From positions 389 to 64,388 of IMG/VR virus record IMGVR_UViG_3300030433_001577: 64,000 nucleotides of DNA; one strand, given 5' to 3'. Under the pieces are notes generated by a model. The model saw nothing but the letters and a program-made list of their open reading frames with translations. It was not told the origin of the DNA and ran no database searches. Below, one piece after another: positions 1,812-29,723 of this stretch. The translations under genes were made by a program, and so were the position numbers. Positions within the stretch are counted from its first letter, which is position 1. Each line of letters starts with the position of its first letter. Source of the DNA: a virus. Its lineage: Duplodnaviria > Caudoviricetes.

Positions 1812-2098
1812 TGGAAGAAATACAAAGAATGGTAGAATTGGGATTGATTAATCAGTCCGACATTGAACGAATGATGAAGAGAGCAACGGGTGGTGCTTAT
1901 GTAGACGAGGCTTCAAAAGCCCGTATTGAGCATTGTATTGTTGAATACAACAACATGGTAGACTCTTTGCACCAATTGGGAGTAATCTCTGATGCCCGAT
2001 TGGATAGCACTAAGGCTAAGGTCAAGAAATTGGTCATAGCCGCAATTAAAGACGGAGAAACACTAGCGGTAGAAACGCAAACACAGGAGGAAGAATGA
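1808..2098 (+). CDS. Hypothetical protein directly upstream of, and translationally coupled to, the Ubl gene
   Basis: ORF track; ATGA overlaps at both ends. Confidence 0.65.
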   Translation: MMEEIQRMVELGLINQSDIERMMKRATGGAYVDEASKARIEHCIVEYNNMVDSLHQLGVISDARLDSTKAKVKKLVIAAIKDGETLAVETQTQEEE

Positions 2099-2304
2099 TG
2101 GTAAAAGTAACTATTTTGAACCAAACAGGGCATACAGTTCTCGACCTTTCGGTTGAGGAAACGATTGAAACAATTAACAACCACCCAACACATTGGGCTT
2201 ACGTCAATGGTGAATTGATGACGGTTGAACAAATTATGGCATTGCCAGAAGATGACATCGAGGATGTTGTCCTTACGCAAGCCATTGTAGGAGGCGACTA
2301 CTGA
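2095..2304 (+). CDS. Ubiquitin-like (beta-grasp, ThiS/MoaD/SAMP-like) protein precursor ending GG-DY
   Basis: 69 aa; N-terminal strands VKVTILN/HTVLDL, ThiS-like AYVNGEL, C-terminal VVLTQAIVGG followed by DY. Confidence 0.8.
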   Translation: MMVKVTILNQTGHTVLDLSVEETIETINNHPTHWAYVNGELMTVEQIMALPEDDIEDVVLTQAIVGGDY

Positions 2305-2335
2305 ACGAAAGTTCTTAGTTTCTTTACCCCCTAGT

Positions 2336-2368
2336 GCGTAGTTTGTGGTCTACGTCATCAAAACCACG
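2336..2368 (+). other. Putative H-type RNA pseudoknot in the intergenic region after the Ubl gene
   Basis: CGTAG(2337-41) pairs with CTACG(2350-54); loop GTGGT(2345-49) pairs with ACCAC(2363-67). Confidence 0.3.
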
Positions 2369-2379
2369 TTTTTTAGAAG

Positions 2380-2697
2380 GTGAAAGGAATGGATGAAAGA
2401 GAGATTTTATTTAAGTATTTAGAACGACAAACGGTGTATATCTTGTATAAAGATTTCTGGACAAGGAAATTTAGCAACAGTTTGCAGGACAGGTTTGGCA
2501 TCAGCCAATACAGAAACCGTCAATTAACAAAGTCGATGGTTTTCGACGATGAGTTTTGGGCTGCTCTTAAGACATCCTCAACTTATCGTTACGTTAAGAA
2601 AGAACAAGCCTACAAAACGCTGATGTATAGTATGAGGAGAGATGCATATGATTTGGTTCGTAAAGATGCTTTGGCAAATGCCAAGAGCGATGATTGA
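2380..2697 (+). CDS. Hypothetical protein
   Basis: ORF track; GGTGAAAGG RBS before internal MDER. Confidence 0.55.
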   Translation: MKGMDEREILFKYLERQTVYILYKDFWTRKFSNSLQDRFGISQYRNRQLTKSMVFDDEFWAALKTSSTYRYVKKEQAYKTLMYSMRRDAYDLVRKDALANAKSDD

Positions 2698-2989
2698 ATA
2701 CAGGCGTGAATACAAACAGGTTCAGTTTGTTCGTAAAGTCCGAAAGCAATTCAATGAGGTTCAGTCTTACTTTATTATCATTGATAAGTTTAAGGAACTT
2801 TATGACGATGAGGAATTTTATTTAGTTAGTCTAAAAGATATGGCTGACCGAGATAGTGATTTACCTCAGTCTGAACTAGAACGATTTTTTGACAAGGGTG
2901 TTGAATTAGGAATATTTAACCCCCGTGTCATTGAAACCATTCCCAAAGTAGAGGCAACTCCCGCTTGGAAACTTTGGGAAGAAGAATAG
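2690..2989 (+). CDS. Hypothetical protein
   Basis: In-frame ATG at 2690 of track ORF 2642..2989, overlapping the upstream stop. Confidence 0.55.
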   Translation: MIEYRREYKQVQFVRKVRKQFNEVQSYFIIIDKFKELYDDEEFYLVSLKDMADRDSDLPQSELERFFDKGVELGIFNPRVIETIPKVEATPAWKLWEEE

Positions 2990-3016
2990 TGGAGGGAGGG
3001 TCGGCAAAAAGGTCAT

Positions 3017-3050
3017 GGACTTATAGTGGGGTTGTGTCCATTATAAGTCC
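3017..3050 (+). other. 13-bp inverted repeat (hairpin) in non-coding gap
   Basis: GGACTTATAGTGG-ggttgtgt-CCATTATAAGTCC, one G-U pair. Confidence 0.6.
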
Positions 3051-3189
3051 GCATTTTACCTACGAAGTGAACCTTAGGGTAATAGATTCAAAAACATATG
3101 CACATATAATAAGGAGATACTATCTAGTCCAAGCACTAAAACCAATTGATAGCGAGAGGGTGAAATGCCCTCATCAAGGAGATATAAAT

Positions 3190-3390
3190 ATGATAACTAA
3201 TAAAGATATTATGAGGCCCATTGTAGGAACTTTAGCCCTACAACCCCTAGCCCTTTGGTGGGCTTGGATGATGAACATTAACTATATGGCAAATCTAGGA
3301 TTTTTTACAGTAATTTCTACTCTGTATTTGATTCCGATTTACTATTTCTATGAGGAGATTTTTGACGGAGGGAAAGCCAATGTCGAATAA
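3190..3390 (+). CDS. Small membrane protein
   Basis: ATG at 3190 after GGAGA RBS (in-frame with track ORF 2965..3390); two hydrophobic segments. Confidence 0.5.
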   Translation: MITNKDIMRPIVGTLALQPLALWWAWMMNINYMANLGFFTVISTLYLIPIYYFYEEIFDGGKANVE

Positions 3391-3628
3391 TATTCCAACT
3401 TGGATTCGATGGAAACCTGTTCTTGAATGTCAAAAGATGGCTTGTGCATGTCAATTGAAAAACAAGACAGGTTTGATGAGAGAACATTGTGAAAACGACA
3501 AAGGTTGTGGAAACTTTGTTCGCATGGATTTTGGTTGCTGGATTTTGGGTAATGGTTCTAAACCAGTCCGAAGATGCAACGAAGATTGCAATTGTCCTTG
3601 TCATCAATATGAGGAGGATGAGGAATAA
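3380..3628 (+). CDS. Cys-rich Zn-binding protein
   Basis: ATG at 3380 after GGAGGG; ECQKMACAC...HC...GC...CNEDCNCPCH. Confidence 0.55.
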   Translation: MSNNIPTWIRWKPVLECQKMACACQLKNKTGLMREHCENDKGCGNFVRMDFGCWILGNGSKPVRRCNEDCNCPCHQYEEDEE

Positions 3629-3636
3629 GACAAACT

Positions 3637-3711
3637 GGGCATATGGTGTAATGGATAGCATTTTGGCCTTCTAAGCCGAAGATACGGGTTCGATTCCTGT
3701 TATGCCCGCCA
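3637..3711 (+). tRNA. tRNA-Arg, anticodon UCU, encoded CCA
   Basis: Acceptor GGGCATA/TATGCCC; anticodon stem TTGGC/GCCGA with loop CT-TCT-AA; T arm ACGGG-TTCGATT-CCTGT; discriminator G then CCA. Confidence 0.93.
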
Positions 3712-3898
3712 ATTCACAAAAGGAGATGAAAATATGATACTATGGGAAAATTGGAGAACATTGAAAGATATAGCAGATGAAGAAGATATAAACCTATTAG
3801 TCGAAGAACTAATAGAACTAGTAGTAAGAAGTGAGGGCGAAAATTACGTCATCAGTCTACTAGGCGACTACATTAACTCAATACTTGAGGGATGAAAT

Positions 3899-4138
3899 AT
3901 GAAAGGAAGAAACAAGAAAAACATTGAACTGATTCGTCAGTTTTTGGAAGAAAAGAAAAAGGCAAGCACCCATGAAATTTATGATTGGATGAACGAAAAT
4001 TGTTATTGGGGTGTAACCCTGCGACAACTAACCAACGTTTTGTGTAAAACTAAGTCAAAGTTTGCAAAGGTTGGCACGGCTGAAATCAGAACAACCCTGA
4101 ATAACAAGACAGAAATTACCATTTGGAGAAATGTTTAA
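3899..4138 (+). CDS. Winged helix-turn-helix protein
   Basis: IRQFLEEKKKASTHEIYDWMN...GVTLRQLTNVL...FAKVG...ITIW. Confidence 0.6.
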   Translation: MKGRNKKNIELIRQFLEEKKKASTHEIYDWMNENCYWGVTLRQLTNVLCKTKSKFAKVGTAEIRTTLNNKTEITIWRNV

Positions 4139-4163
4139 AAAGAAGTTTTGAGGTGAAAAAAAC

Positions 4164-6056
4164 ATGACAACAACAACAAACATAGACGATAAAGCCATTT
4201 TGAGCGACATTACTGTTCATATGAAGTATGCACGGTATCTAAACGAGCAAAATAGGCGAGAAACATGGAACGAACTGATTGAGAGAAATAAGCAAATGCA
4301 TCTCAAAAAGTATGGGAAAATCGAAGGCTACACGGAATTGATTGAAACTGCCTACAAAATGGTGGAGGAAAAGAAGATTCTACCTAGCATGAGAAGTTTG
4401 CAATTTGGTGGAAAGTCCATCGAAGTTGCACCTAATCGAATTTACAACTGTGCATATTTGCCCGTAGATTCTTTGGAGAGTTTTTCTGAATCAATTTTCC
4501 TACTTTTAGGAGGAACGGGCGTGGGCTATTCTGTTCAGCGACACCACGTTGAACAATTGCCAGAAATCAGAAAACCTAATCCTAACCGAAAGCGAAGATA
4601 TTTGATTGGTGATTCTATCGAAGGTTGGGCTGATGCAGTTAAGGTATTGATTAAGAGTTATTTTGGTCAAAACGTTTCTACACCAGTCTTTGACTATTCA
4701 GACATTCGACCTAAAGGTTCTATTTTGGTAACATCAGGAGGTAAAGCACCTGGACCTGCCCCATTAAGAGAATGTTTGGTAAAGGTAGAAAATATGCTAA
4801 AAGGAATGCAAGATGGGGATAAACTTACACCGCTTCAGGCACATGATATTATGTGTCATTTGGCTGATGCAGTATTGGCAGGTGGAATTCGACGTGCTGC
4901 TCTAATTAGTTTGTTCTCGGCTGACGACATGGAAATGATTACTTGCAAGTCTGGCAATTGGTGGGAATTGAACCCACAAAGGGGAAGGGCTAACAATTCT
5001 GCTGTATTGCTCAGAAACAGAATTACAAAGTCTTTCTTCCTGCAACTGTGGAAAAGAATTCAAGAGTCGGGAAGTGGAGAACCTGGGATTTATTTTTCCA
5101 ACGATAAAGATTGGGGGACAAACCCATGCTGTGAAATTGCTCTAAGACCATATCAATTCTGCAATCTTGTGGAGATAAATGCGTCGTCTGTTGAATCCGA
5201 ATTGGACTTCCTTCGACGTGTAAAATATGCTACACTAATTGCAACAATGCAAGCAGGATATACAGACTTCCACTATCTAAGAGATATTTGGAAAAAGAAT
5301 ACAGAAAAGGATGCACTTTTGGGTATCAGTATGACAGGAATTGCTAGTGGAACTTTGGACAACTTCAACTTTGAAGAATTGATGGAAGCATCAAATGATT
5401 TAATCCGTGATTGTAATGCTGAATTTGCTGAAGACTTTGGTATCAATCCTGCGGCTAGAACAACTTGCGTTAAACCTGCGGGAACTACTTCTCTAGTTTT
5501 GGGAACTTCCTCAGGTATTCACGCATGGCACAATGATTACTACATCCGTCGCATTAGGGTTGGTAAGAATGAAGCCATTTACAATTACCTGTTAAAGACA
5601 TTGCCAGAAATTGTAGAAGATGAAGCGTTTCGCCCACATGATACTGCTGTAATTTCAATTCCACAAAAAGCACCTTCAGGCGCAAGCACTAGAACTGAAA
5701 ATGTTTTCGAGTTCCTAGAACGTGTGCGAAATTATTCAAAACATTGGGTAAAGAATGGGCATCGAGATGGACTTAATACTCACAATGTTTCCGCTACAAT
5801 TTCTGTTAAAGAAAATGAGTGGGATAGTGTAGGTAATTGGATGTGGAATAATCGAGAATACTACAATGGATTAAGTGTGCTTCCGTATGACGGTGGCACT
5901 TACACTCAAGCACCATTTGAAGATATTACAGAAGAACAATATCTGGAAATGGTCGCTATGTTAAAGGGATTAGACATGACACAAGTTATTGAACAGGAGG
6001 ACAATACAGACCTTCAAGGTGAAATTGCGTGTGCAGGTGGTCTATGTGAAATCTAG
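4164..6056 (+). CDS. nrdJ: Class II (adenosylcobalamin-dependent) ribonucleotide reductase
   Basis: KILPSMRSLQFGG, IYNCAY, GGIRRAALISL, TNPCCEI (thiyl Cys), TTCVKPAGT, C-terminal CAGGLCEI; no nrdB in window. Confidence 0.93.
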   Translation: MTTTTNIDDKAILSDITVHMKYARYLNEQNRRETWNELIERNKQMHLKKYGKIEGYTELIETAYKMVEEKKILPSMRSLQFGGKSIEVAPNRIYNCAYLPVDSLESFSESIFLLLGGTGVGYSVQRHHVEQLPEIRKPNPNRKRRYLIGDSIEGWADAVKVLIKSYFGQNVSTPVFDYSDIRPKGSILVTSGGKAPGPAPLRECLVKVENMLKGMQDGDKLTPLQAHDIMCHLADAVLAGGIRRAALISLFSADDMEMITCKSGNWWELNPQRGRANNSAVLLRNRITKSFFLQLWKRIQESGSGEPGIYFSNDKDWGTNPCCEIALRPYQFCNLVEINASSVESELDFLRRVKYATLIATMQAGYTDFHYLRDIWKKNTEKDALLGISMTGIASGTLDNFNFEELMEASNDLIRDCNAEFAEDFGINPAARTTCVKPAGTTSLVLGTSSGIHAWHNDYYIRRIRVGKNEAIYNYLLKTLPEIVEDEAFRPHDTAVISIPQKAPSGASTRTENVFEFLERVRNYSKHWVKNGHRDGLNTHNVSATISVKENEWDSVGNWMWNNREYYNGLSVLPYDGGTYTQAPFEDITEEQYLEMVAMLKGLDMTQVIEQEDNTDLQGEIACAGGLCEI

Positions 6057-6257
6057 AAACAAAGAAATTTTCTTCAGGCCCGTCAATACAATTATGAAAG
6101 ACGGTGAATGGAGAAGCGAAGAACAAATCCAAAAGGCGTGGATTGACCTGCCCCGCCATGATGGATTAAAAAGAAAAATGATAGGAACTGTAAATGAAAT
6201 ACGTTCTTATCTCAGGTTAAACCAAAACTATGAAATGAAAGATGGAAAGGTGAAAGA

Positions 6258-6470
6258 ATGGAGAATGAAAGTTTGAATGAAAATGTTGTGTATCGGGTAA
6301 CAAGTCTAAAATCTAATGGCTCGGTATGGACAAAGACGTATGAAGATAAGGACAAGTTGGCCGAAGTAATGCCAATCTTGATTGAACAATACCCTCATGT
6401 AGTGATTAGCCGTCAAGTGCTAAAGAAACCACATCTGGAATATTTGAGGGGGCTTGGCGATGGAAATTGA
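6258..6470 (+). CDS. Hypothetical protein
   Basis: ORF track; GGTGA RBS. Confidence 0.6.
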   Translation: MENESLNENVVYRVTSLKSNGSVWTKTYEDKDKLAEVMPILIEQYPHVVISRQVLKKPHLEYLRGLGDGN

Positions 6471-6687
6471 ATTTAGGATTATCGAGGATGAAAATTTGCC
6501 AATTATCTTCATTGATGGTGAAGATTTGCGACCTATAATTACTATCAACGCACATAGTAAAAACCGTGTCTGGCTAAGTATTCATCGCAACACAATACCT
6601 GGAATTGCACAAAGTCTACAAGCAAAACTTACTGAGATTTGCGACTCATATCTAAAGCAAAGATATTGGATGGAGGGAGAAGAATGA
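6454..6687 (+). CDS. Hypothetical protein
   Basis: ORF track; coupled to neighbours. Confidence 0.6.
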   Translation: MAMEIEFRIIEDENLPIIFIDGEDLRPIITINAHSKNRVWLSIHRNTIPGIAQSLQAKLTEICDSYLKQRYWMEGEE

Positions 6688-6827
6688 GTAAAATTGTTGG
6701 ATGGAATATTTTTGTTGAAGTTGAAGATGATGACGGACAATTGGAATTAGTTGCGTGGAATATCTCTGATTATATCGCACAACAAATTGACCTTGAATAT
6801 CAAGAATTATTGGAGGAAGAAGAATGA
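6684..6827 (+). CDS. Small acidic hypothetical protein
   Basis: ATG at 6684 after GGAGGGAG; ATGA overlap with upstream stop. Confidence 0.5.
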   Translation: MSKIVGWNIFVEVEDDDGQLELVAWNISDYIAQQIDLEYQELLEEEE

Positions 6828-6982
6828 ATGTAGTTAAAAGATGGAAAGAAATAATAAAAGAAATTAAAACAAGAACCCATAGTCACGGAACGCTTAGTGG
6901 CGGAATGAAAAGTTATTACAATAGGCGTGAGCAAATTGCCGCTTTATTGGTTATTGCTGAAGTATTACAAGGTGATGAATAA
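6824..6982 (+). CDS. Small hypothetical protein (not in ORF track)
   Basis: MNVVKRWKEIIKEIKTRTHSHG...LQGDE; fills the gap exactly with overlapping start/stop codons. Confidence 0.55.
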   Translation: MNVVKRWKEIIKEIKTRTHSHGTLSGGMKSYYNRREQIAALLVIAEVLQGDE

Positions 6983-8397
6983 TGACAGCACAATCTAGAA
7001 ACTCAGGTTACAGAACGGCTACAAGTAATACAACCTTTACCTATACTAGTTCTTATGGTAGAATGCGAGAAGGTAGAAATTCTGTCTACAATATCTCTCA
7101 ACCTAATAATAGGTCAGGGACACAAGATGATGGAACGTTGGCTACTAAGCACGTTTCAAAAATTTTGAATGGAACACTAAAGGCTTATAGGTGGATTACA
7201 TTTACAAAGCCCGTTGGAACGCAAAGACCAACTCCCCCTTCTTTGAAGATGGACTTGAAAATGGGAAGTAGTTATCTACATTTCTTTAGAGTTGATAACA
7301 AAACATACTGCAATGGTTTCCCTATCAAGTCATACATGACAGGACCAATTTTCTTGGGCTGTTTTAGCAAACTAGCGTCATGGAATCAAGATAAAGTAGA
7401 TGAATTTGTCTACAATTCTATGGATTCTGTGCCAGAAGTTTTGGCCGCTATGACCAACAATTTGAAGTTCAATTATATGCTAAATGGTAGATGGGAAACT
7501 TCCTTGTTAAAGGTCAGTTTGATTAGCCGTAAGGAAGTTGCCGTTCAATTGTATGAAGGGTGTTGGATGCCCATGAAGCAAACAGCATTCAGAAGTTTGT
7601 TCAATGCAGGTGCGGGTAGAAATAACAAATATTCTACCATGAGTCCTGAGGAACTATATTTCAAATGCACGGGTGAACATTTAACAGATGTGCAAATTAA
7701 ATATATGTATGCATATTTGGACCAAAATACTTCAACAAAATTGGTTACAAAAAGAAGCCTAGAATTGTTGGATGGACTGCCAGAAATGTTCCCCACTAGA
7801 GTTAAGAAGTTTGACTTCGATAGCGATAAAAACGGTTACAGATACAACACGGTAATGTTTGTAAAAGGTAATCAATTAGATTGGATTGTATCTGGTAGCG
7901 TGAATTATGAAAAGGTCAGGACAGGCAGACAAAATGTTTCGAGTCAAGTAGTCATTGACATTAGAAATTATGACTTGCAGGTTACAATACCTTCTGATGA
8001 TGGGATTGGTTCTATCAATAACTATACAATCAAGAGTTGGTCTAACATGATGTCTCATTGCGTTGCTATGAAAAATAACCCAAACTGGAGATTCGATTTA
8101 ATTCCCAAGCAAAATTTTTATGGCATGTCCGCCCTCAATCTAAGACGTAACACTGGTGCGATTTATTATTGTAAAGAAAGCAAACAAGCCTTTGTTTCCT
8201 TAAGCGGAATCTGTATCGACCAATCGAATACTGATGTATCTATTGGCGACCAATTTGCCTCAAGGGTTATGGCGTTTCTAAATGACACGGCTAGTTTTAA
8301 CCGTGTTTCAACTATGAGAAGTTACAGTAAAATTAAACCAGCATTTAGAGTTGATTTCGATGCCCTGTCTGAATTGCAAATCCCGACTTTTGAGTAG
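6982..8397 (+). CDS. Large hypothetical protein heading the TFB-E1-JAB gene run
   Basis: 471-aa ORF; GGTGA RBS; no family recognised. Confidence 0.75.
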   Translation: MTAQSRNSGYRTATSNTTFTYTSSYGRMREGRNSVYNISQPNNRSGTQDDGTLATKHVSKILNGTLKAYRWITFTKPVGTQRPTPPSLKMDLKMGSSYLHFFRVDNKTYCNGFPIKSYMTGPIFLGCFSKLASWNQDKVDEFVYNSMDSVPEVLAAMTNNLKFNYMLNGRWETSLLKVSLISRKEVAVQLYEGCWMPMKQTAFRSLFNAGAGRNNKYSTMSPEELYFKCTGEHLTDVQIKYMYAYLDQNTSTKLVTKRSLELLDGLPEMFPTRVKKFDFDSDKNGYRYNTVMFVKGNQLDWIVSGSVNYEKVRTGRQNVSSQVVIDIRNYDLQVTIPSDDGIGSINNYTIKSWSNMMSHCVAMKNNPNWRFDLIPKQNFYGMSALNLRRNTGAIYYCKESKQAFVSLSGICIDQSNTDVSIGDQFASRVMAFLNDTASFNRVSTMRSYSKIKPAFRVDFDALSELQIPTFE

Positions 8398-8974
8398 AGT
8401 AAAAGAGGTCTTTGTTTGTGGGGAGTGTGGTCTTGTGAATGTGTCTAAAATTGTCTCCTTTTCTGAAAGTAGAGATATTGACAGGGAATTCATAGACCTC
8501 ACATTATTGTATAGGGAATGGGATTTACCTCATCTTGATGAGGCGAAGAAGTATATGCGTTCAGCATATGTGTATATTCATAGTGGAAGATTTTCAATGG
8601 CAGAAATGTCGGCAACAGTAGCACATATCCATATGCGTAATTTGGATAGGCCGACTAATCTTTACAAACATTGTAAATATCTAGGAATAAGAACGACGAA
8701 AGTAAAAAGAATGATTGATAGGTTGAAGGATTTTTGGGATGTTGATTGGCACTACAACATCGAGGAAGCCCACAGACTTTGCGATACTTTAGAAGTAGAT
8801 TTTGACGTAGAAGTTATGCAGAAAGTTGCGGATGAAATGGTATTAACGCCATCAATAATAGCCGCAGTAGTCTACATGACTAATGATATGTCGCATAGAA
8901 AGGTCGCAAATCTGTTCAACCTAAGTGCTACAAATGTGCTAAACAAAAAGAAAAAATTGGAGGAAATAATATGA
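8360..8974 (+). CDS. tfb: Archaeal transcription factor B (TFIIB)-like protein
   Basis: N-terminal Zn ribbon CLNC...CGECG; cyclin-repeat-like core; C-terminal PSIIAAVVY...SHRKVANLFNLSATNV matching the TFB second repeat/HTH. Confidence 0.75.
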   Translation: MPCLNCKSRLLSRVKEVFVCGECGLVNVSKIVSFSESRDIDREFIDLTLLYREWDLPHLDEAKKYMRSAYVYIHSGRFSMAEMSATVAHIHMRNLDRPTNLYKHCKYLGIRTTKVKRMIDRLKDFWDVDWHYNIEEAHRLCDTLEVDFDVEVMQKVADEMVLTPSIIAAVVYMTNDMSHRKVANLFNLSATNVLNKKKKLEEII

Positions 8975-9534
8975 AGAAAATAATGGTAATAGGCGCAGGA
9001 GGAATTGGAAGTTTCCTTATTCCCCTGCTTGACCGAGTGAACGAATATGAAATCAATGTATGGGATGATGACATTGTTGAGAAAAAGAACCTGTCATATC
9101 AGGATTTTTATGAAGACGATGTGGGAAAGCATAAGACAGATGTGATGTCTTATCGCTACCGTAATGTAAAAAGTCATCCTTACCGTGTCCTAACAAAGAA
9201 ACAACTTACGGGATATGATTTGGTTATCTGTTGTGTAGATAATCTTGAACTGCGACGGCTACTTTATCTTGTAGATACTGAGAAAATTAAATGGTTGGAC
9301 TTGAGAGCGCAAGCCCGTAATGGACTACTAATTAGTTTTCAAGAGAACCCTGATAACTTTGCCATATTGACAAATGGGCCAGATGGTAATTTTAGTTGTC
9401 AAGGCGATGAATGGGATAGAAGCAACGCAGGTGTTCACTTCACCCACGTTGCAATTGCAGGAATGGGCGCACAATGGGTTCAAAGATATTTTGCAGGAGA
9501 TAAAACACATACTCATGTGAGGTTATCAATATGA
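8971..9534 (+). CDS. ThiF/MoeB/UbaA-family E1-like adenylating enzyme
   Basis: IMVIGAGGIGS (GxGxxG), WDDDIVEKKNLSYQ, VGKHK, DLVICCVDN; candidate catalytic Cys in FSCQG. Confidence 0.88.
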   Translation: MKKIMVIGAGGIGSFLIPLLDRVNEYEINVWDDDIVEKKNLSYQDFYEDDVGKHKTDVMSYRYRNVKSHPYRVLTKKQLTGYDLVICCVDNLELRRLLYLVDTEKIKWLDLRAQARNGLLISFQENPDNFAILTNGPDGNFSCQGDEWDRSNAGVHFTHVAIAGMGAQWVQRYFAGDKTHTHVRLSI

Positions 9535-9638
9535 AAGAGAAGAGATTTTGTAAAAAGTGTGGGGCAGGACTAGCCATGCGAATTAGTGAAGAACGATGTC
9601 CAAAATGTAAAAGGAGAAAGAAATATGAAAACAATTAG
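9531..9638 (+). CDS. 35-aa CxxC...CxxC Zn-ribbon peptide between E1 and JAB (not in ORF track)
   Basis: MKEKRFCKKCGAGLAMRISEERCPKCKRRKKYENN; ATGA overlap with the E1 stop. Confidence 0.5.
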   Translation: MKEKRFCKKCGAGLAMRISEERCPKCKRRKKYENN

Positions 9639-10326
9639 AATTGGAAAGGTAGAAGAATATGCGGATGACCTTTTGTTAAACCAAAGGTTGGATGAGATAG
9701 AACAAGATGAAGATGTGGTGATTGAAGAAATCTTTGTTGAAGGCGGAATTATTTACGCTGATGCTGTTGATGTTGTTCAATACACTATCACGGAATTTAA
9801 CGACGATAAGACATATCATGGTTCAGAAATGGGATTATTCTTCAAAGGTAATGAACCCAAAAGTGGGCCACTAAATGTTCGCTATACTGACATTGAACCT
9901 GAGGTCTGGCAAAAGGAGATAAAGGAAGTCTGGAGACATCTTTCTTTTAAGGGAGAAGATGACCCATCAGATGAGAGATTTATTGAAGCAATTTGGAATG
10001 CTTCTAAGAACATATTGCCTGGATTAGAAATATCAGTAATTATTGACCGTGATGGAAAATTGTTCATGAATAGCGGTTCGCCTGGATATGTAGACTATGG
10101 TGGAGTTATGGTTGCAGGTATGAAAATTCCTATTAAATGTTGGATTCATACCCATCCATTTGGTTCAGCCTTTTGGTCTGGAACAGATACCCATACTTTG
10201 CGTAATTGGCGACCTATCTTAGACCAAGCAATTGTTATTGGAAATCAGGAGTATTTGAAATGGGACAAATTGGAAGACAAGGAAGTAATGACGAAGGTAG
10301 TGTGGACAGAACAATTCAAGTTGTGA
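9625..10326 (+). CDS. JAB/MPN+ (JAMM) metallo-isopeptidase with acidic N-terminal domain
   Basis: Exact JAMM signature E(LEIS)...HTH-PFGSAFW-S-GT-D (HxHx7Sx2D); ATG at 9625 follows GGAGA RBS. Confidence 0.88.
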   Translation: MKTIRIGKVEEYADDLLLNQRLDEIEQDEDVVIEEIFVEGGIIYADAVDVVQYTITEFNDDKTYHGSEMGLFFKGNEPKSGPLNVRYTDIEPEVWQKEIKEVWRHLSFKGEDDPSDERFIEAIWNASKNILPGLEISVIIDRDGKLFMNSGSPGYVDYGGVMVAGMKIPIKCWIHTHPFGSAFWSGTDTHTLRNWRPILDQAIVIGNQEYLKWDKLEDKEVMTKVVWTEQFKL

Positions 10327-10364
10327 GATTCCCCACTACTGAACATAGGGTGATAAGTTGCCCT

Positions 10365-10679
10365 ATGGAATGTAATTCTGGTTGCAAAATTTGCACGGAT
10401 GGAAGTTATGAAGTTGAAGGAGAGTTATGGGTTAATATCCAACACCCCCATGTAATACAATACATACGGGATAATTTGATGTTTGTTTCTTTGGAATACA
10501 ATCGTCTTTTTGGAACGTCTTATGAATTTGTAAGCGAGGGAATGTTGAAGTTAGGATGGACTACATTTAGGGTTGATAGCCCTGTGGGTTCTATGTGGAT
10601 TTGTGTTAATTTAGTAGGAAATGTAAGACACTTTTATAGCGAAGGAGGATTAAAAAAATGGTTAGCATTAGAGAAGTAA
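10365..10679 (+). CDS. Hypothetical protein with N-terminal CxxxCxxC
   Basis: ATG at 10365 in frame with track ORF 10206..10679; GGGTGA RBS 11 nt upstream. Confidence 0.5.
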   Translation: MECNSGCKICTDGSYEVEGELWVNIQHPHVIQYIRDNLMFVSLEYNRLFGTSYEFVSEGMLKLGWTTFRVDSPVGSMWICVNLVGNVRHFYSEGGLKKWLALEK

Positions 10680-10948
10680 GAAGAATGTGGAAAGGAAAAA
10701 GAGGAATAACGGAAGACGCTGTTCATGAATTTAAGGACAGGGCTGAAATGTTGTTGGAAGCACTGGTAAGATTGGCAAACTATGAAGCCAATAAGCGAGG
10801 CCCAACATCAAGATTGAGAACACAAGATGTTCAATTGGCCTATTTGTCCATAATGGATTTGACAAATAATGTAAGGTCGAATAGAACAGATGCCGACGAT
10901 AATACCTCGTTGAACGATATTGAATTTGGAGAGTGGAATAGTGAGTAG
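10658..10948 (+). CDS. Archaeal-type histone-fold protein with acidic C-terminal tail
   Basis: IREVRRMWK-GKRGITEDAVHEF...ANYEANKRGPTSRLRTQDVQLA aligns by eye with HMf-type IGRIIK-AERVSDDA...AKHAGRKTIKAEDIELA (L1 R-x-T/S, L2 R-x-x-x-x-D). Confidence 0.7.
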   Translation: MVSIREVRRMWKGKRGITEDAVHEFKDRAEMLLEALVRLANYEANKRGPTSRLRTQDVQLAYLSIMDLTNNVRSNRTDADDNTSLNDIEFGEWNSE

Positions 10949-21183: not shown

Positions 21184-23617
21184 TTATGTAGGAACTGAGA
21201 TACAACTTATTTATCGAGATGAAAACAATGAACGTGTAGTGGATAGAGAACCATTTGAGCCATACTTTTATGTCAAAATTGACGAAAAAGTTCCAAGACA
21301 ACTAGTATTCAAGGGTAGATATGGCGATAACTATTACAAGTTAAGAAGTAGAGATTTCGCAGAAGGTCGTTCTTTGGAGGGTTATCCGCTAAAGAAAGTC
21401 TTCTATGGTCATCCCGACAATAGATACAATGTCAAAAAGGGTCTAGAGAATATGGGAATCAGAACCTTTCAAGGCGACGTGGATATGAGAAGACTTTACT
21501 GCGTAGATAAACTTGAGGAGGTAAAGGAATACAATTTGCGTAAATGGTATTTTGACATTGAGGTTCAACAACAGGGTATCTATCATGACGCAATTACAGT
21601 ATTATCCGTGTATGATAATTACACAAATACATACCATTTATTTGCATGGTTTCCAGAACAGTTTCCAGAAGAGATTAAAGACTTTGAAGGTTTAAATATT
21701 GTGAACCATTTTCATAAAACAGAAGAAGATATGATGGAAGACTTTGTATCTCTAATGGAAGAACATGACCCTGATATGATTCTAGGTTGGTATGTGTTGG
21801 GATATGATATTCCCAAAGTTATCAATAGACTTGTTGAGATGGGAATAGATGCAACTCGCCTTTCACCTCTTAGAAATATTAAGGGTGTGTATAAGCGTGG
21901 GGATGCCATACATTCTAACATTGACAAGTATATTAACAGCGCACAACCAATTAGGGGTCGTCTTACATTCTGTCTAATGGATAGATTTGAACGACTATGG
22001 ACTGATTCACAAATGGGGACATTACCTAGTCTAAAATTAGATGACTGTTCTAAGTTGGTTTTAGGTGAAGATGAAGGGAAGGTTAGCACATCTAAGTTTC
22101 AAGACTCGGAGTTTTATGAACGTGCGTGGCTAGAAGATACTCAGGTCTATTTGGAGTATGCAATAAAAGACGTAAAATTGTGCGTGGATATTGATGAAAA
22201 GATGAACATTAGTGAGAACAGTTTGGCACTACAAAGATTGATTAAATGTCCGTTTGAATCCACGTTCCATAATTCACAAATGGCAGGTGTATATTTTATG
22301 CGTGTTGCTGATTGGATTGCGCCTTCTGGCGTAAAGGGAACAAAGGAAAACTTTGAAGCGGCTTTCGTTATGAATCCTCAGATTGAAGGAACGTTTGGTC
22401 TGCATGAAAATGTGGCTGTATTTGATTTTAAATCACTATACCCTTCAATGATGGCATCAATGAATATTTCATGGGAAACCAAAAAGAGAAAGCCCGAAGA
22501 GGGTGATTATCCTGTATGGTATCAGACTCCGAAGAATCTAATGCTTTGGGAGGGTGAAACTGATATTCACTATTGCAGTAAAAAGGATGGCCTGTTGCCA
22601 AAGGCTGTAAAAGAGTTAATGGCTATGCGTGATGAATATAAGAAGTTGCGTAAAGAGGCCAACACCGATGAAGAGTATAGAAAGTGGGATTCAGCACAAA
22701 TGGCTACAAAGCGTGTCGTTAATGCATTCTATGGTATTCTTGCTAAGGATAACTATGGGTGGGGCGATATGGAAATGGCTAAATCTATTACCGCATCAGC
22801 GAGAAGGGCTATGCGTGAAACAGCGTTTAAGGCTCAAGAGTTGGGTTATGAAGTTATTTACGGACACACAGATTCAATCTTTGTGAAAGTGTCTGGTGTA
22901 TCGGAGGCTCATTTATTGCGAGTAGAGTTAAACGATTATATCAAGAAGGTTTTTAGAGAACCTGTTGAACTTGAATTTGAGAAATTTGCTAGTAAGTTTT
23001 TCTTATCTACTAAGAAAAATCGTTACTGCGGTTGGTTATCATGGAAAGATGGAGAATATCTCGATGAGGATAAATTCTTCGTCATGGGTTTTGAAATGAA
23101 GAAAAGCAACGAAACTAAATTTGCAAAAACTTATCAGCGAAGGCTATTGGAGATGGTGTCGTCTTTTACAGATAGTGAAGAAATCATCAAATACTGTAAT
23201 GATTCATATAAACAATTATATACAGGTGATGTTAGTCTTAGAGATATAAGCAAAAGAAGTAGATTGCGTCAAAAGTTAGAAGATTACAAATCAATTGCTG
23301 GAGGCGTTGCAGGTATTATTTATTACAATCAACAGAAGATTGGTAGAATAGAAAATGGTGATTCATATTTCTATTTCAAAATGGATAATGCGGAACTGCG
23401 AGAGAAGTATTATATTTGGGGTGGAAAGTCCAATGAGGCAAATTATATTGCGTTCAGAAACTTTCATGAAGTGGATGGTAAATACACACCAGATTGGCAG
23501 TTTATTGCCCAAGCCGAAGTGATAAAAAAATCAGAACTAATTTTTGAGAGTTTAGGGTGGCCCATTGGTTTAATCAAAAGGGACATTTATCAGAAAACAC
23601 TAACGGAGTGGTTTTAA
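21140..23617 (+). CDS. polB: Family B DNA polymerase (archaeal type), no intein
   Basis: ExoI FDIE, ExoII GYDIP, ExoIII YAIKD, motif A FDFKSLYPS, B KRVVNAFYG, C YGHTDS, KKNRY. Confidence 0.96.
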   Translation: MIENGEKEMTEMIIDYVGTEIQLIYRDENNERVVDREPFEPYFYVKIDEKVPRQLVFKGRYGDNYYKLRSRDFAEGRSLEGYPLKKVFYGHPDNRYNVKKGLENMGIRTFQGDVDMRRLYCVDKLEEVKEYNLRKWYFDIEVQQQGIYHDAITVLSVYDNYTNTYHLFAWFPEQFPEEIKDFEGLNIVNHFHKTEEDMMEDFVSLMEEHDPDMILGWYVLGYDIPKVINRLVEMGIDATRLSPLRNIKGVYKRGDAIHSNIDKYINSAQPIRGRLTFCLMDRFERLWTDSQMGTLPSLKLDDCSKLVLGEDEGKVSTSKFQDSEFYERAWLEDTQVYLEYAIKDVKLCVDIDEKMNISENSLALQRLIKCPFESTFHNSQMAGVYFMRVADWIAPSGVKGTKENFEAAFVMNPQIEGTFGLHENVAVFDFKSLYPSMMASMNISWETKKRKPEEGDYPVWYQTPKNLMLWEGETDIHYCSKKDGLLPKAVKELMAMRDEYKKLRKEANTDEEYRKWDSAQMATKRVVNAFYGILAKDNYGWGDMEMAKSITASARRAMRETAFKAQELGYEVIYGHTDSIFVKVSGVSEAHLLRVELNDYIKKVFREPVELEFEKFASKFFLSTKKNRYCGWLSWKDGEYLDEDKFFVMGFEMKKSNETKFAKTYQRRLLEMVSSFTDSEEIIKYCNDSYKQLYTGDVSLRDISKRSRLRQKLEDYKSIAGGVAGIIYYNQQKIGRIENGDSYFYFKMDNAELREKYYIWGGKSNEANYIAFRNFHEVDGKYTPDWQFIAQAEVIKKSELIFESLGWPIGLIKRDIYQKTLTEWF

Positions 23618-24099
23618 TGGGAAAGAAAGAAGGAACATATCTAAAGACCCTTAGGAATATACATGAGCGTATTCAAAAGAAAAAGGGAGAAGTCGGAGAA
23701 ATTGAACAAGAATTCTTAGCGGAAGTTAAGAAAGAACGAGAAATGTGGGTAAAGGTTGGTAGATGCACAGTTTGTCTAGCCGAAGGTGAAACAGAATGGC
23801 ATCACATTATCAGCCAACATAGATGTAGAGAGATAAGTAAAGAATATCTAATACATTCTAGAACCAACGTGATTGAGATTTGCAGAAGTTGTCATGATGA
23901 AACTACTGCAAGTCTGAGAAGAAAACACATTGAACAGAATGGTGGTGGTGCTAAAACTGTAAAGAATCCTAATGGAGCGATGACCATAAGACAAGAAGAG
24001 TATATCAAGAAATTAGGCGGAGAAAACCGAATAACAACAAACATGACAAGAGGCGAAGCCTCAAAACTTATAGATGCATTAAAGGAGGAAGCAAATTGA
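23617..24099 (+). CDS. HNH endonuclease with C-terminal helical extension
   Basis: CTVC...WHHI...NVIEICRSCH; tail TIRQEEYIKKLGG...TRGEASKLIDAL. Confidence 0.75.
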   Translation: MGKKEGTYLKTLRNIHERIQKKKGEVGEIEQEFLAEVKKEREMWVKVGRCTVCLAEGETEWHHIISQHRCREISKEYLIHSRTNVIEICRSCHDETTASLRRKHIEQNGGGAKTVKNPNGAMTIRQEEYIKKLGGENRITTNMTRGEASKLIDALKEEAN

Positions 24100-29494: not shown

Positions 29495-29515
29495 ATATTT
29501 ATGAAAAAAATTTTT

Positions 29516-29558
29516 AGGGTGTCCTTCCCCTTCGGGGGAGGGGCATCCTATTTTTTTT
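29516..29558 (+). terminator. Strong hairpin plus T-tract at the convergence of the two arms
   Basis: 15-bp stem AGGGTGTCCTTCCCC / GGGGAGGGGCATCCT (with G-U pairs) around TTC, followed by T9. Confidence 0.75.
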
Positions 29559-29723
29559 GGTTTCTGACCCGATTTAAGCGCATTTTTTTAGACCTAGAAA
29601 AAAGCGTTTTAGAAATAGCAAAAAGTAAAAAGTAAAATGAACATTCGAGCGCAACTAGCATTAAAAAATTTTTGCCTGTAAAACACGTTGTTTCGTTTAG
29701 GGCAGTTATACAAACCTCAAGGT

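What the first reader, a model, noticed from the sequence alone, without database searches (positions are those of the whole stretch)
2095..10326. Virus-encoded ubiquitin/SAMP-like conjugation kit: Ubl precursor, E1 and JAMM protease
Seen: a beta-grasp protein ending ...AIVGG-DY (2095..2304), a ThiF/UbaA-type E1 (8971..9534) and a protease with an intact HxHx7Sx2D JAMM motif (9625..10326). Established: in archaeal sampylation and bacterial Ubl systems, JAMM enzymes expose and remove GG-ended modifiers and ThiF-type enzymes adenylate them. Inference: the 2-residue cap blocks activation until the viral JAB trims it, so the three genes likely act together as a self-contained tagging cycle. No sulfur-relay clients (ThiI/NcsA, ThiG, MoaE) are visible in the window, which favours protein conjugation. 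Possible roles are hijacking host sampylation/proteasome, modifying viral proteins, or jamming host Ubl-based defence.
Basis: partly seen in the sequence, partly recalled or inferred. Interest (0 to 1): 0.92.

Follow-up and report, generated by a model that had tools for sequence, protein, structure and literature searches.

The report
Magrovirus ubiquitin-like protein-tagging gene set
This abundant ocean virus of archaea carries a tiny ubiquitin-like protein, the enzyme that activates it, a trimming protease and a probable carrier enzyme, a set shared with its host archaea, so it probably tags proteins itself; no biochemistry exists yet.

Summary
The window is 64.0 of the 64.4 kb of a magrovirus record. 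It encodes a 68-aa beta-grasp protein ending AIVGG-DY, a compact 187-aa ThiF-type E1, and a JAMM peptidase with an invariant E...HxHx7Sx2D motif.

The three genes are functionally linked:
- Relatives include natural Ubl-E1 fusions, di- and tri-Ubl precursors, and Ubl fused to a partner protein.
- In 84 related viral loci, every locus with enough flank has JAB (82/82) and Ubl (43/43).

- A fourth gene is always present upstream (64/64): window 6982-8397. It has an invariant cysteine and a weak E2/RWD-like predicted fold, so it is a candidate carrier.
- A homologous module is chromosomal in about half of the sampled host order Poseidoniales, beside a separate canonical E1.

Two corrections:
- The E1 is not UbaA-type.
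- The two-residue cap is not universal. Eight of 52 viral Ubls end at GG yet keep JAB, so JAB probably also deconjugates.

No sulfur-relay client was found here or in four complete relatives. Protein conjugation is favoured (about 0.6), but sulfur transfer is not excluded. This scan has already noted the same system on other DNA. I found it in none of the papers I searched.

The parts
2098..2304 (+). Ubiquitin-like protein precursor: 68 aa (69 aa from the ATG at 2095), beta-grasp fold, invariant C-terminal AIVGG followed by a DY tail.
   Evidence: ORF. Homologue alignments show invariant GG and a variable tail. AF2 model pLDDT 81 with beta-grasp topology. Fold neighbours are all Ubl or sulfur-carrier beta-grasps. 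No Pfam hit for any of 69 family members. There are 154 representatives in the 1.84-billion-protein library, including tandem and fused forms.
6982..8397 (+). 471-aa protein with invariant Cys411, Asp423 and Asp435 (motif G-ICID-x8-GDQ-x10-ND). Candidate E2-like carrier, or otherwise a cysteine enzyme of the module.
   Evidence: The three residues are invariant in 26 viral and host sequences. hhalign links the viral and host families at 94.6% probability. The protein lies upstream of E1 in 64/64 viral loci with enough flank. AF2 model pLDDT 78.7. Residues about 250-458 hit Ubc9, RWD, UEV and other E2 folds at Z 3.9-5.7. There is no Foldseek or Pfam support.
8351..8974 (+). TFB/TFIIB-like zinc-ribbon protein, a conserved neighbour directly upstream of E1; its stop overlaps the E1 start.
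   Evidence: Weak Pfam Zn_Ribbon_TF hit, E 0.011. Homologous families lie upstream of E1 in viral loci (hhalign 96.4%). A TFB-like gene is also found in host-type cassettes L014 and L059.
8971..9534 (+). Compact E1-like adenylating enzyme (187 aa, ThiF superfamily) with an invariant Ser-Cys143-Gln in the presumed crossover loop.
   Evidence: Pfam ThiF is above its cut-off. Invariant GxGGIGS, D32, D34, N40, Q44, K55, D90, R95, R112 and SCQ. SCQ is present in 84/84 viral loci. The profile hits solved E1s, with a ThiF-type protein, Uba1, NAE1 and Cap2 among the top rows. Homologues are naturally fused to the Ubl.
9625..10326 (+). JAMM/MPN+ metallopeptidase (233 aa; alternative GTG start at 9586). 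The N-terminal ~110 residues are variable; the catalytic domain is C-terminal.
   Evidence: Invariant E135 and HxHx7Sx2D. The motif is present in 83/83 viral loci. The profile hits AMSH-LP at E 2e-4. The gene lies downstream of E1 in 82/82 viral loci and nearly all host loci.

Best explanation
The virus encodes its own ubiquitin-like conjugation pathway. It is a diverged copy of a module that is also chromosomal in its hosts, the Poseidoniales (Marine Group II archaea).

Proposed cycle, with all chemical steps inferred:
1. The JAMM peptidase removes the DY tail and exposes the Gly-Gly end of the 68-aa Ubl. In relatives it would also cut di- and tri-Ubl precursors and Ubl fusions.
2. The compact E1 adenylates that C-terminus with ATP and probably takes it as a thioester on invariant Cys143.
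3. The Ubl passes to invariant Cys411 of the 471-aa protein encoded two genes upstream, a candidate E2-like carrier.
4. The Ubl is then attached to lysines of viral or host proteins that are still unknown.
5. The JAMM enzyme probably also reverses the tag, because it is kept in viruses whose Ubl has no tail.

Shown here: the folds and motifs, the gene linkage, the fusions, and the distribution in viruses and hosts.
Inferred: adenylation, thioester transfer, isopeptide formation, the targets, and the purpose during infection.
For: - Identity of the parts: beta-grasp Ubl with invariant GG; ThiF-superfamily E1 above the Pfam cut-off with ATP-site residues and an invariant Cys; complete invariant JAMM motif.
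- Functional link between Ubl and E1: natural fusions Ubl-Ubl-E1 (P0152) and Ubl-linker-E1 (P0177).
- Need for a processing peptidase: tandem di- and tri-Ubl proteins, and Ubl fused N-terminally to the Cys-protein family, each junction directly after GG. JAB is always next to E1.
- Strict co-inheritance in 84 viral loci, which form 46 clusters at 90% E1 identity: JAB 82/82, Cys protein 64/64, Ubl 43/43 where the flank allows, all on one strand.
- Host genomes: of 121 sampled genomes of the order, 63 have both Ubl and JAB, 1 has Ubl only, 7 have JAB only and 50 have neither.
- The five hosts checked also carry a separate full-length canonical ThiF/UbaA-type E1, so the compact module is an extra system.
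- No PP-loop thiolase, MoaE, ThiG or rhodanese in this record. No PP-loop or rhodanese in four complete relatives.
- The Cys protein has an invariant Cys at the end of a strand, followed ten residues later by a helix. About 28 of its 50 listed structural neighbours are UBC, UEV or RWD folds.
- A tested precedent exists: in bacterial Bub operons, the JAB domain of the JAB-E1 fusion protein cleaves a Ubl-E2 fusion after the conserved Gly (PMC11601596).
Against: - There is no biochemical evidence of any kind.
- The E2-like assignment rests on Z 3.9-5.7, below the level the tool treats as safe, with no Foldseek, Pfam or PDB-sequence support. The classical HPN motif is absent.
- The E1 departs from canonical E1s. 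It lacks the N-terminal Arg-finger helix and the C-terminal zinc/beta-sheet region that binds the Ubl in MoeB and ThiF. The Arg of the NLxRQ motif is replaced by Tyr or His.
- The beta-grasp fold, the GG end, the short tail and a JAB partner are equally typical of sulfur carriers. My own knowledge: QbsE/QbsD, CysO/Mec+. MoaD, TtuB, CysO and ThiS are among the fold neighbours.
- The virus could use host sulfur-relay enzymes, so their absence from viral genomes is weak evidence.
- The co-occurrence counts are conditional on loci found through E1. The host counts are phylogenetically structured.
Confidence: 0.6

Rival explanations
1. Sulfur-carrier system. The Ubl is trimmed by JAB and adenylated by E1. 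It is then converted to a C-terminal thiocarboxylate that donates sulfur to a tRNA, cofactor or small molecule. The invariant-Cys protein would act as a persulfide relay or as the sulfur-using enzyme rather than as an E2.
For: - The fold neighbours include MoaD, TtuB, Urm1, CysO and ThiS at the same Z as ubiquitin-type modifiers.
- E1 family hits include ThiF and MoeB models.
- JAB trimming of a two-residue tail from a GG-ended sulfur carrier is established for QbsE/QbsD, and JAB hydrolysis of CysO adducts for Mec+ (my own knowledge).
- An invariant Cys is as expected for a persulfide carrier as for an E2.
Against: - No rhodanese, PP-loop ATPase, MoaE or ThiG in this record. No rhodanese or PP-loop ATPase in four complete relatives.
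- The E1 has no rhodanese domain.
- The five hosts checked already have a canonical full-length ThiF/UbaA-type E1.
- Tandem poly-Ubl precursors and Ubl fused to the Cys protein mirror the polyubiquitin and Bub Ubl-E2 architectures (PMC11601596).
- The structural neighbours of the Cys protein are UBC, UEV and RWD folds, and no sulfurtransferase is among the 50 rows listed.
Confidence: 0.22
2. Interference rather than independent tagging. The viral copies mainly act on the homologous host pathway. The viral JAB would strip host Ubl conjugates, or the viral Ubl and E1 would compete with or mis-direct the host enzymes, for instance to neutralise a host Ubl-based defence or to take over proteolysis.
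For: - The host order carries the homologous module.
- JAB is kept even where the viral Ubl needs no trimming.
- Bacterial Ubl systems (Bil, Bub, CBASS Cap2/Cap3) are linked to antiviral defence (PMC11601596).
- Borg elements of archaea carry many JAMM 'deSAMPylases' (PMC12660748).
Against: - Viral E1s form their own well-supported clade, only 28-39% identical to host E1s.
- The virus keeps all four parts with catalytic residues intact in every locus examined. That fits a working self-contained pathway better than a decoy.
- The main host cassette sits among housekeeping genes rather than in a recognisable defence island.
Confidence: 0.13
3. The genes are unrelated neighbours and the GG end is coincidental. 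There is no common pathway.
For: The Ubl lies 6.7 kb from E1, with unrelated genes between them, including a ribonucleotide reductase.
Against: Ubl-E1 fusions occur in relatives. Co-occurrence is perfect in viral loci. Presence and absence are tightly coupled in host genomes: 63 both, 1 plus 7 single, 50 neither.
Confidence: 0.02

Closest known systems
Bacterial Bub operons, type I (Ye, Gong, Chambers and Corbett 2024, PMC11601596; class 6E of Iyer, Burroughs and Aravind)
   Same: - Both combine a Ubl with 1-3 beta-grasp domains, a minimal single-domain homodimer-type E1, a JAB peptidase paired with the E1, and an E2-type partner.
- In Bub the Ubl is made as a Ubl-E2 fusion that the JAB cuts after the conserved Gly.
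- Host relatives of this virus likewise have Ubl-Ubl fused to the Cys-protein family, directly upstream of E1 and JAB.
   Different: - Bub E1 and E2 lack catalytic cysteines and work through oxyesters. Here Cys143 of E1 and Cys411 of the partner are invariant.
- JAB and E1 are separate genes in this window.
- No DUF6527 (BubE) was seen in the ORFs scanned.
- The partner is 471 aa with extra domains.
- The carrier is an archaeal virus. There is no detectable sequence-family membership.
Bacterial Bil systems (BilA Ubl, BilB E2, BilC JAB, BilD E1), as summarised in PMC11601596
   Same: Both have four parts (Ubl, E2, JAB, E1) and no E3. Bil makes true lysine isopeptides. A Bil Ubl (8tyz_B) is among the top structural neighbours of the viral Ubl, at Z 5.1.
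   Different: [quoted passage not shown] Bil is a bacterial anti-phage defence, whereas this set is carried by the virus.
Archaeal sampylation (SAMP1-3, UbaA, HvJAMM1 of Haloferax volcanii)
   Same: Both are archaeal and combine beta-grasp modifiers ending in GG, a ThiF-type E1 and a JAMM peptidase that processes and removes the modifier.
   Different: - Sampylation needs no E2, and UbaA also serves sulfur transfer.
- The viral E1 is not UbaA: 35.7 bits against a cut-off of 450.
- The five host genomes checked carry a separate canonical full-length E1 as well.
- The Ubl matches no ThiS/MoaD Pfam model.
QbsE/QbsD/QbsC of Pseudomonas thioquinolobactin synthesis and CysO/Mec+/MoeZ of Mycobacterium (my own knowledge, not tested here)
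   Same: A GG-ended beta-grasp carrier is made with a two-residue tail. A JAB peptidase removes the tail before an E1-like enzyme activates the carrier.
   Different: Those are sulfur carriers whose E1 has a rhodanese domain and whose operons hold the sulfur-using enzymes. No rhodanese or such client was found here.
PRTRC (ParB-related, ThiF-related cassette) and the other mobile E1-JAB cassettes of Iyer et al. 2006 (PMC1779556)
   Same: PRTRC ThiF is the best NCBIfam hit of the E1. Both involve a short ThiF partnered with JAB on mobile elements. That paper also described tandem Ubl repeats and Ubl-E1 fusions in bacteria.
   Different: The score is far below the family cut-off (52.4 against 144.75). 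No ParB partner is present. The setting is an archaeal virus and its host.
Lambda-type phage tail assembly proteins I (Ubl) and K (JAB + NlpC/P60) (PMC1779556)
   Same: A virus encodes both a Ubl with a C-terminal Gly and a JAB peptidase.
   Different: Those lack an E1 and lie in the tail module. Here an E1 and a Cys protein are present, and the genes lie in the replication-side module on the opposite strand from the structural genes.

Membership tests
E1/ThiF/MoeB superfamily (Pfam PF00899) | Match to the family model above the curated cut-off | tested here: met
   60.6 bits against a cut-off of 28.1, E 1.7e-16. Also 59.2 bits in the whole-record search.
E1/ThiF/MoeB superfamily (Pfam PF00899) | Glycine-rich ATP loop, the Asp that binds the ribose, Lys, and the Mg-binding Asp of the DN motif | tested here: met
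   GxGGIGS, D32/D34, K55 and D90 are invariant in 8 diverse viral and host sequences.
E1/ThiF/MoeB superfamily (Pfam PF00899) | Arg of the NLxRQ motif, and an N-terminal Arg-finger helix | tested here: not met
   The motif reads NLSYQ (Tyr or His in the family), aligned to NLNRQ of solved E1s. The protein starts 7 residues before the glycine loop.
E1/ThiF/MoeB superfamily (Pfam PF00899) | Conserved cysteine in the crossover loop | tested here: met
   S142-C143-Q144 is invariant and present in 84/84 viral loci. It lies 10 residues before the AGV motif. Its role as the thioester site is inferred.
E1/ThiF/MoeB superfamily (Pfam PF00899) | C-terminal CxxC zinc site and Ubl-binding beta-sheet region of MoeB and ThiF | tested here: not met
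   The protein ends about 25 residues after the last Rossmann helix and has no CxxC pair.
SAMP-activating E1 UbaA (NCBIfam NF047750) | Score above the equivalog cut-off | tested here: not met
   35.7 bits against 450, matching only residues 3-98.
PRTRC system ThiF (TIGR03736) | Score above the cut-off | tested here: not met
   52.4 bits against 144.75.
JAMM/MPN+ metallopeptidases (Pfam Prok-JAB PF14464) | Catalytic Glu plus the HxHx7Sx2D zinc motif | tested here: met
   E135 and HTHPFGxAxxSxxD are invariant in 24 homologues. The motif is present in 83/83 viral loci.
JAMM/MPN+ metallopeptidases (Pfam Prok-JAB PF14464) | Match to the family model above the cut-off | tested here: not met
   14.8 bits against 25, E 0.027. 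The family profile does reach AMSH-LP, AMSH and Sst2 at E 2e-4 to 1.5e-3, but over the motif region only.
JAMM/MPN+ metallopeptidases (Pfam Prok-JAB PF14464) | MPN fold | not tested
Ubiquitin-like beta-grasp modifiers and carriers | Beta-grasp fold | tested here: met
   The model has pLDDT 81 and topology b-b-a-b-b-(a)-b. The top Foldseek and VIA rows are nearly all beta-grasp Ubls or sulfur carriers, with modest scores: E 5e-3 and Z up to 5.2.
Ubiquitin-like beta-grasp modifiers and carriers | Conserved C-terminal Gly-Gly, exposed or followed by a removable extension | tested here: met
   The last Gly is invariant in 69 family members. GG is invariant in the viral copies. Tails of 0-4 residues, tandem repeats and fusions all join directly after GG.
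Ubiquitin-like beta-grasp modifiers and carriers | Membership of a named sequence family (ThiS/MoaD, ubiquitin, Prok_Ub) | tested here: not met
   No Pfam family matches any of 69 members at E 0.01. There are no NCBIfam, PHROG, PADLOC or PDB sequence hits.
E2/UBC superfold (UBC, UEV, RWD) | UBC-like fold | tested here: inconclusive
   Residues about 250-458 align to Ubc9 (Z 5.7, 100 residues, rmsd 3.7), GCN2 RWD (Z 5.2), Ube2K, UBC12, Tsg101, FANCL, ASFV I215L, BubB and UFC1. About 28 of 50 rows are of this superfold, all at Z below 6. Foldseek finds nothing. The domain carries an inserted sub-domain (329-392).
E2/UBC superfold (UBC, UEV, RWD) | Invariant catalytic Cys after the beta-meander, followed by the crossover helix | tested here: met
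   C411 is invariant in 26 viral and host sequences, at the end of strand 403-410, with a helix at 421-433. The motif is present in 70/71 viral loci. Its catalytic role is inferred.
E2/UBC superfold (UBC, UEV, RWD) | HPN motif upstream of the Cys, and a match to UQ_con or Prok-E2 models | tested here: not met
   There is no HPN before C411. No E2 family appears among the Pfam hits of 26 members, even at E 1.
Bub type I operon | Ubl-E2 fusion, JAB-E1 fusion, DUF6527 protease, and no catalytic cysteines (oxyester chemistry) | tested here: not met
   In this window all four are separate genes. Invariant cysteines are present in E1 and the partner. No DUF6527 hit appeared in the ORFs scanned. Ubl-partner fusions do occur in host relatives.
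Bil operon | [quoted passage not shown] | tested here: not met
   The E1 is a single 187-aa adenylation domain. The feature definition comes from PMC11601596.

The most novel reading that the evidence does not exclude
Magroviruses are among the most abundant viruses in the surface ocean. On this reading they run a complete cascade of their own (Ubl, E1, an E2 of a new family, and JAMM) and use it during infection to tag host or viral proteins. The cascade descends from a ubiquitin-like system of Marine Group II archaea that I found described in none of the papers searched. That host system has polyubiquitin-like precursors and thioester chemistry. It would be a third archaeal route to ubiquitin-type signalling, beside sampylation and the Caldiarchaeum/Asgard ubiquitin systems.
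Probability: 0.5. Interest if true: 0.85.

Novelty: new variant of a known kind. Interest (0 to 1): 0.78.

Why it matters
Ubiquitin-type tagging with E1, E2 and deubiquitinase parts is known from eukaryotes, a few archaea, and bacterial anti-phage systems.

- A full set carried by a virus of archaea would be a new case of a virus bringing its own protein-tagging machinery. It is strictly conserved in at least 342 IMG/VR contigs of a globally abundant virus group.
- The homologous chromosomal module occurs in about half of the sampled Poseidoniales. This points to a ubiquitin-like system in one of the ocean's dominant archaeal lineages that the papers I searched do not mention. Its polyubiquitin-like precursors and a new cysteine-carrier family bear on how E1-E2 cascades evolved before eukaryotes.
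- The parts are small and could be tested in vitro even though neither virus nor host is cultured.
- None of the searched magrovirus papers mentions ubiquitin, ThiF or JAB.

Tried and rejected
- Foldseek of the 471-aa model against PDB gave only low-probability rows.
- Profiles of the 471-aa family and of the Ubl against PDB sequences gave nothing meaningful.
- The protein atlas gave no usable hit for residues 280-471.
- PHROGs and PADLOC gave only generic E1 hits (Cap2-type E1-E2 models matched over the ATP loop) and nothing for Ubl, JAB or the 471-aa protein.
- The small helical gene that follows JAB in hosts (81 aa) showed no relation to the gene after JAB in the virus (hhalign).
- Expression: one marine metatranscriptome study (two runs, one sample) holds short contigs identical to 2000-2238 and 10110-10266. 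These are contigs from an RNA library covering a small part of the stretch, so I do not count them as proof of transcription.
- I considered a phage-lambda-like tail-assembly role and rejected it. The genes sit in the replication-side, + strand module, and an E1 is present.
- I considered a RiPP or microcin-type ThiF (MccB-like) and rejected it. The substrate is a folded 68-aa beta-grasp with GG, and JAB and poly-Ubl forms are present.
- The top two 'bacterial' genome hits (Maricaulis and Altibacter MAGs) carry the viral gene order and are most likely mis-binned magrovirus contigs, not bacterial homologues.

Full report
WHAT THE WINDOW IS

The window is 64.0 kb of a 64.4-kb linear viral record that CheckV rates 71% complete. 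Plus-strand genes fill 1-29.5 kb and minus-strand genes fill the rest, and the GC skew changes sign at about 30 kb.

The plus-strand block holds:
- a class II ribonucleotide reductase
- a Cpn60-family chaperonin
- an RFC-type clamp loader
- a family B DNA polymerase
- a PD-(D/E)XK nuclease

The minus-strand block holds a tail-tube protein, a 2350-aa ORF and an ATP-dependent DNA ligase.

This is the gene content described for magroviruses, the viruses of Marine Group II archaea. Ribonucleotide reductase is reported there for group B (PMC5434244).

THE OBSERVATION

Ubl:
- The small protein ends LTQAIVGG-DY.
- Forty-three close homologues (65-100% identity) keep GG invariant, while the tail varies: DY, NY, TY, CY, V.
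- Copies in more distant viral contigs (42-52% identity) again keep AIVGG, with tails NV, SL and NC.
- A model built on 69 family members has mean pLDDT 81 and the strand-strand-helix-strand-strand-(helix)-strand order of a beta-grasp.
- Its structural neighbours are almost exclusively beta-grasp proteins: NEDD8, ubiquitin, SUMO, ISG15, a Bil Ubl, MoaD, TtuB, Urm1, CysO and ThiS. The scores are modest (Foldseek E 5e-3; VIA Z 4-5.2).
- No Pfam, NCBIfam, PHROG, PADLOC or PDB sequence model matches it.

E1:
- The 187-aa protein is a ThiF-superfamily member above the Pfam cut-off.
- It is not UbaA, MoeB, ThiF or PRTRC-ThiF by NCBIfam cut-offs.

JAB:
- The protease falls below the Pfam Prok-JAB cut-off.
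- Its Glu and its HxHx7Sx2D motif are invariant in 24 diverse homologues, and the family profile reaches the JAMM deubiquitinase AMSH-LP at E 2e-4.

DO THE GENES BELONG TOGETHER?

I searched a profile of the Ubl against 1.84 billion representative proteins and found 154 relatives. They include:
- proteins made of two or three tandem Ubl units, each ending in VGG or a close variant
- Ubl units fused to a roughly 300-aa domain
- two proteins in which one or two Ubl units are fused directly to a compact E1 of the same family as the viral one (P0152, P0177)

Such a fusion is the classical sign that two proteins act together. In the contigs that carry these fusions, a JAB gene follows the E1.

In IMG/VR, 342 contigs encode a relative of the viral E1. 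I examined 84 loci, which form 46 clusters at 90% E1 identity and 8 at 70%:

| Gene | Position relative to E1 | Flank required | Present |
|---|---|---|---|
| JAB | downstream | at least 3.5 kb | 82 of 82 |
| Ubl | 2.8-8.4 kb upstream | at least 8 kb | 43 of 43 |

Both are always on the same strand as E1. The counts are conditional on E1 being present, but they leave no room for a chance association.

A FOURTH, AND PERHAPS A FIFTH, PART

The 471-aa protein at 6982-8397 is present upstream of E1 in 64 of 64 loci with enough flank.
- Its family is linked by profile comparison (94.6% probability) to a host family found upstream of Ubl-E1 fusions. More weakly, it is linked to the domain that is fused behind Ubl-Ubl in P0149 and its relatives.
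- Across 26 viral and host sequences only three residues are invariant: Cys411, Asp423 and Asp435, in the motif G-ICID-x8-GDQ-x10-ND.
- In the model (pLDDT 78.7) the cysteine ends a strand and a helix begins ten residues later.
- A search of about 48,000 solved chains places residues 250-458 nearest to Ubc9 (Z 5.7), RWD domains, Ube2K, UBC12, Tsg101 UEV, FANCL, the ASFV E2, BubB and UFC1. About 28 of the 50 rows listed belong to the UBC/UEV/RWD superfold.
- All these Z values are under 6. Foldseek, Pfam and PDB sequence searches give nothing, and there is no HPN motif.

I therefore call this protein a candidate E2-like carrier and nothing firmer.

The TFB-like zinc-ribbon protein at 8351-8974 overlaps the E1 start. 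It is also conserved upstream of E1 in viruses and occurs in some host-type cassettes. Its role is unknown.

THE HOST CONNECTION

A scan of one genome per prokaryotic species found full-length E1 relatives (28-39% identity) in about 40 contigs of Poseidoniales MAGs, some of them hundreds of kilobases long.

Main host arrangement:
- E1, JAB and an 81-aa helical protein form a tight run.
- It sits between a glycosyltransferase, a GDP-mannose dehydratase-like gene and a FadB-like gene, which looks like ordinary chromosome.
- In those genomes the Ubl is encoded elsewhere as a di-Ubl whose units end ALQAG or ALLAG.

Other host arrangements have the Ubl adjacent to E1, fused to E1, or fused to the Cys protein.

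In 121 sampled genomes of the order:

| Ubl | JAB | Genomes |
|---|---|---|
| yes | yes | 63 |
| yes | no | 1 |
| no | yes | 7 |
| no | no | 50 |

This pattern is phylogenetically structured, so the Fisher p value of 4e-25 overstates independence.

Each of the five hosts checked also has a canonical full-length ThiF/UbaA-type E1 (246-273 bits), in addition to the compact one (60-68 bits).

In an E1 tree the 13 viral sequences form one clade (support 99/99). Forty-two of the 43 loci I had labelled as host form another (99/96). The 43rd, L034, is from a Micrarchaeota MAG; I had labelled it as host, but it groups with a Methanoperedens sequence next to the viral clade. Long branches separate the groups. 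The tree is unrooted, so the direction of transfer is open, but repeated recent capture from hosts is unlikely.

MECHANISM

My proposed order is:
1. JAB trims the tail.
2. E1 adenylates the Ubl.
3. The Ubl forms a thioester on E1 Cys143.
4. It transfers to Cys411 of the partner.
5. It is attached to lysines.
6. JAB also removes the tag.

Support for the E1 chemistry:
- The ATP-site residues are invariant.
- Ser-Cys-Gln is invariant, 10 residues before the AGV motif. That is the region where ThiF, MoeB and UBA5 carry their crossover-loop cysteine (the positions in the known enzymes are from my own knowledge and PMC11601596).

Evidence that JAB does more than trim: eight of 52 viral Ubls end exactly at GG, yet JAB and the partner are retained.

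Features that are unusual for an E1:
- There is no N-terminal Arg-finger helix.
- There is no C-terminal zinc/beta region.
- Tyr or His replaces the Arg of NLxRQ.

CONJUGATION OR SULFUR TRANSFER?

The fold, the GG end, the short tail and the JAB partner fit both readings.

In favour of conjugation:
- the polyubiquitin-like precursors
- the Ubl fusions to the Cys protein, which parallel the experimentally cleaved BubAB Ubl-E2 fusion (PMC11601596)
- the UBC/RWD-like neighbours of the Cys protein
- the separate canonical E1 in the five hosts checked
- the absence of PP-loop thiolases, MoaE, ThiG and rhodanese from this record, and of PP-loop and rhodanese domains from four CheckV-complete relatives of about 95 kb

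Against giving this much weight: a virus can use host enzymes, and an invariant cysteine also suits a persulfide relay.

My estimates are conjugation about 0.6, sulfur transfer about 0.2, and a mainly interfering role on the host pathway about 0.13.

COMPARISON WITH KNOWN SYSTEMS

The nearest in logic are the bacterial Bub type I operons and the Bil operons. Archaeal sampylation is nearest in host domain.

The set is not a member of any of these:
- The E1 fails the UbaA and PRTRC cut-offs.
- It is not the multi-domain BilD type.
- Unlike Bub, both the E1 and the partner keep invariant cysteines.

Iyer, Burroughs and Aravind (PMC1779556) described tandem Ubl repeats, Ubl-E1 fusions, mobile E1-JAB-E2 cassettes and the lambda TAPI/TAPK pair in bacteria and phages. 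Borg elements carry JAMM 'deSAMPylases' (PMC12660748).

None of the magrovirus or Poseidoniales papers I could search mentions ubiquitin, ThiF or JAB. Absence from this library does not prove absence from the literature.

EARLIER NOTES OF THIS SCAN

After reaching the above I looked up earlier notes. Several report the same system on other DNA: magrovirus windows with Ubl, E1, E2-like and JAB, and Poseidoniales windows with E1-JAMM-helical cassettes, E1::JAB fusions and cysteine proteins. One note flags the 471-aa protein of this same window. They agree with my reading. They are unchecked AI notes, so I do not count them as independent evidence.

VERDICT

- The module needs four or five genes rather than three.
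- It is a copy of a host-lineage system.
- The cap-gating idea holds only in part.
- It is a new variant of a known kind of system. It lies in families without names and in a very abundant virus-host pair, and nothing about it has been tested at the bench.

Noticed in passing
window 8351-8974 (+): A TFB/TFIIB-like zinc-ribbon protein is wedged between the Cys protein and E1, with overlapping stop and start codons. It is conserved there in viral loci and also occurs in some host-type cassettes (L014, L059). Why a transcription-factor-like protein travels with a Ubl module is unexplained.
   Followed up: partly
L096-L103 (Poseidoniales genomes G001-G005): Host di-Ubl units end in ALQAG or ALLAG (Ala-Gly) plus one Gln, rather than Gly-Gly. 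The gene sits next to an RFC-like clamp-loader gene and a band-7-like gene in several genomes.
   Followed up: partly
L016 (Maricaulis MAG contig) and L017 (Altibacter MAG contig): Two contigs filed under bacterial MAGs carry the magrovirus gene order (RNR, Cys protein, TFB-like, E1, JAB) at 55-56% E1 identity. They look like viral contigs mis-binned into bacterial genomes.
   Followed up: partly
G002 (contigs C6 and C7): One Poseidoniales genome has two separate compact E1-JAB modules, while the other four checked have one.
   Followed up: no
L034 (Micrarchaeota MAG) and L060 (Methanoperedens BLZ2): These are distant relatives of the compact E1 outside Poseidoniales, with no JAB detected beside them. 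In the E1 tree they group with each other and sit next to the viral clade, on long branches.
   Followed up: no
window 10329-10679 (+) and 10658-10948 (+): Two small genes directly after JAB are conserved after JAB in several related viral loci and have no family. The second has a weak histone-fold hit (E 0.14).
   Followed up: partly
window 3899-4138 (+): A 79-aa protein matches DUF3860 (E 1.2e-9), a winged-helix-like domain of unknown function.
   Followed up: no
window 33908-40960 (-): A single 2350-aa ORF lies in the structural module. A large jelly-roll protein of about 6 kb is reported for magroviruses in PMC11706807. I did not analyse this one.
   Followed up: no
window about 29500-29700: GC skew and AT skew change sign where the + strand replication-side block meets the - strand structural block, so the two modules are transcribed convergently.
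   Followed up: no
window 23557-24099 (+): A 180-aa ORF overlapping the end of the polymerase gene has a below-cut-off hit to the MtrC/MtrF cytochrome domain (E 1.7e-5). This is probably spurious.
   Followed up: no
contig of P0177 (136.8 kb, ENA ERZ24794645): The host-type cassette with the Ubl-E1 fusion lies near a gene with a single-subunit (T7-like) RNA polymerase domain, PF00940. That is unexpected in an archaeal chromosome and may mark a large mobile element.
   Followed up: no
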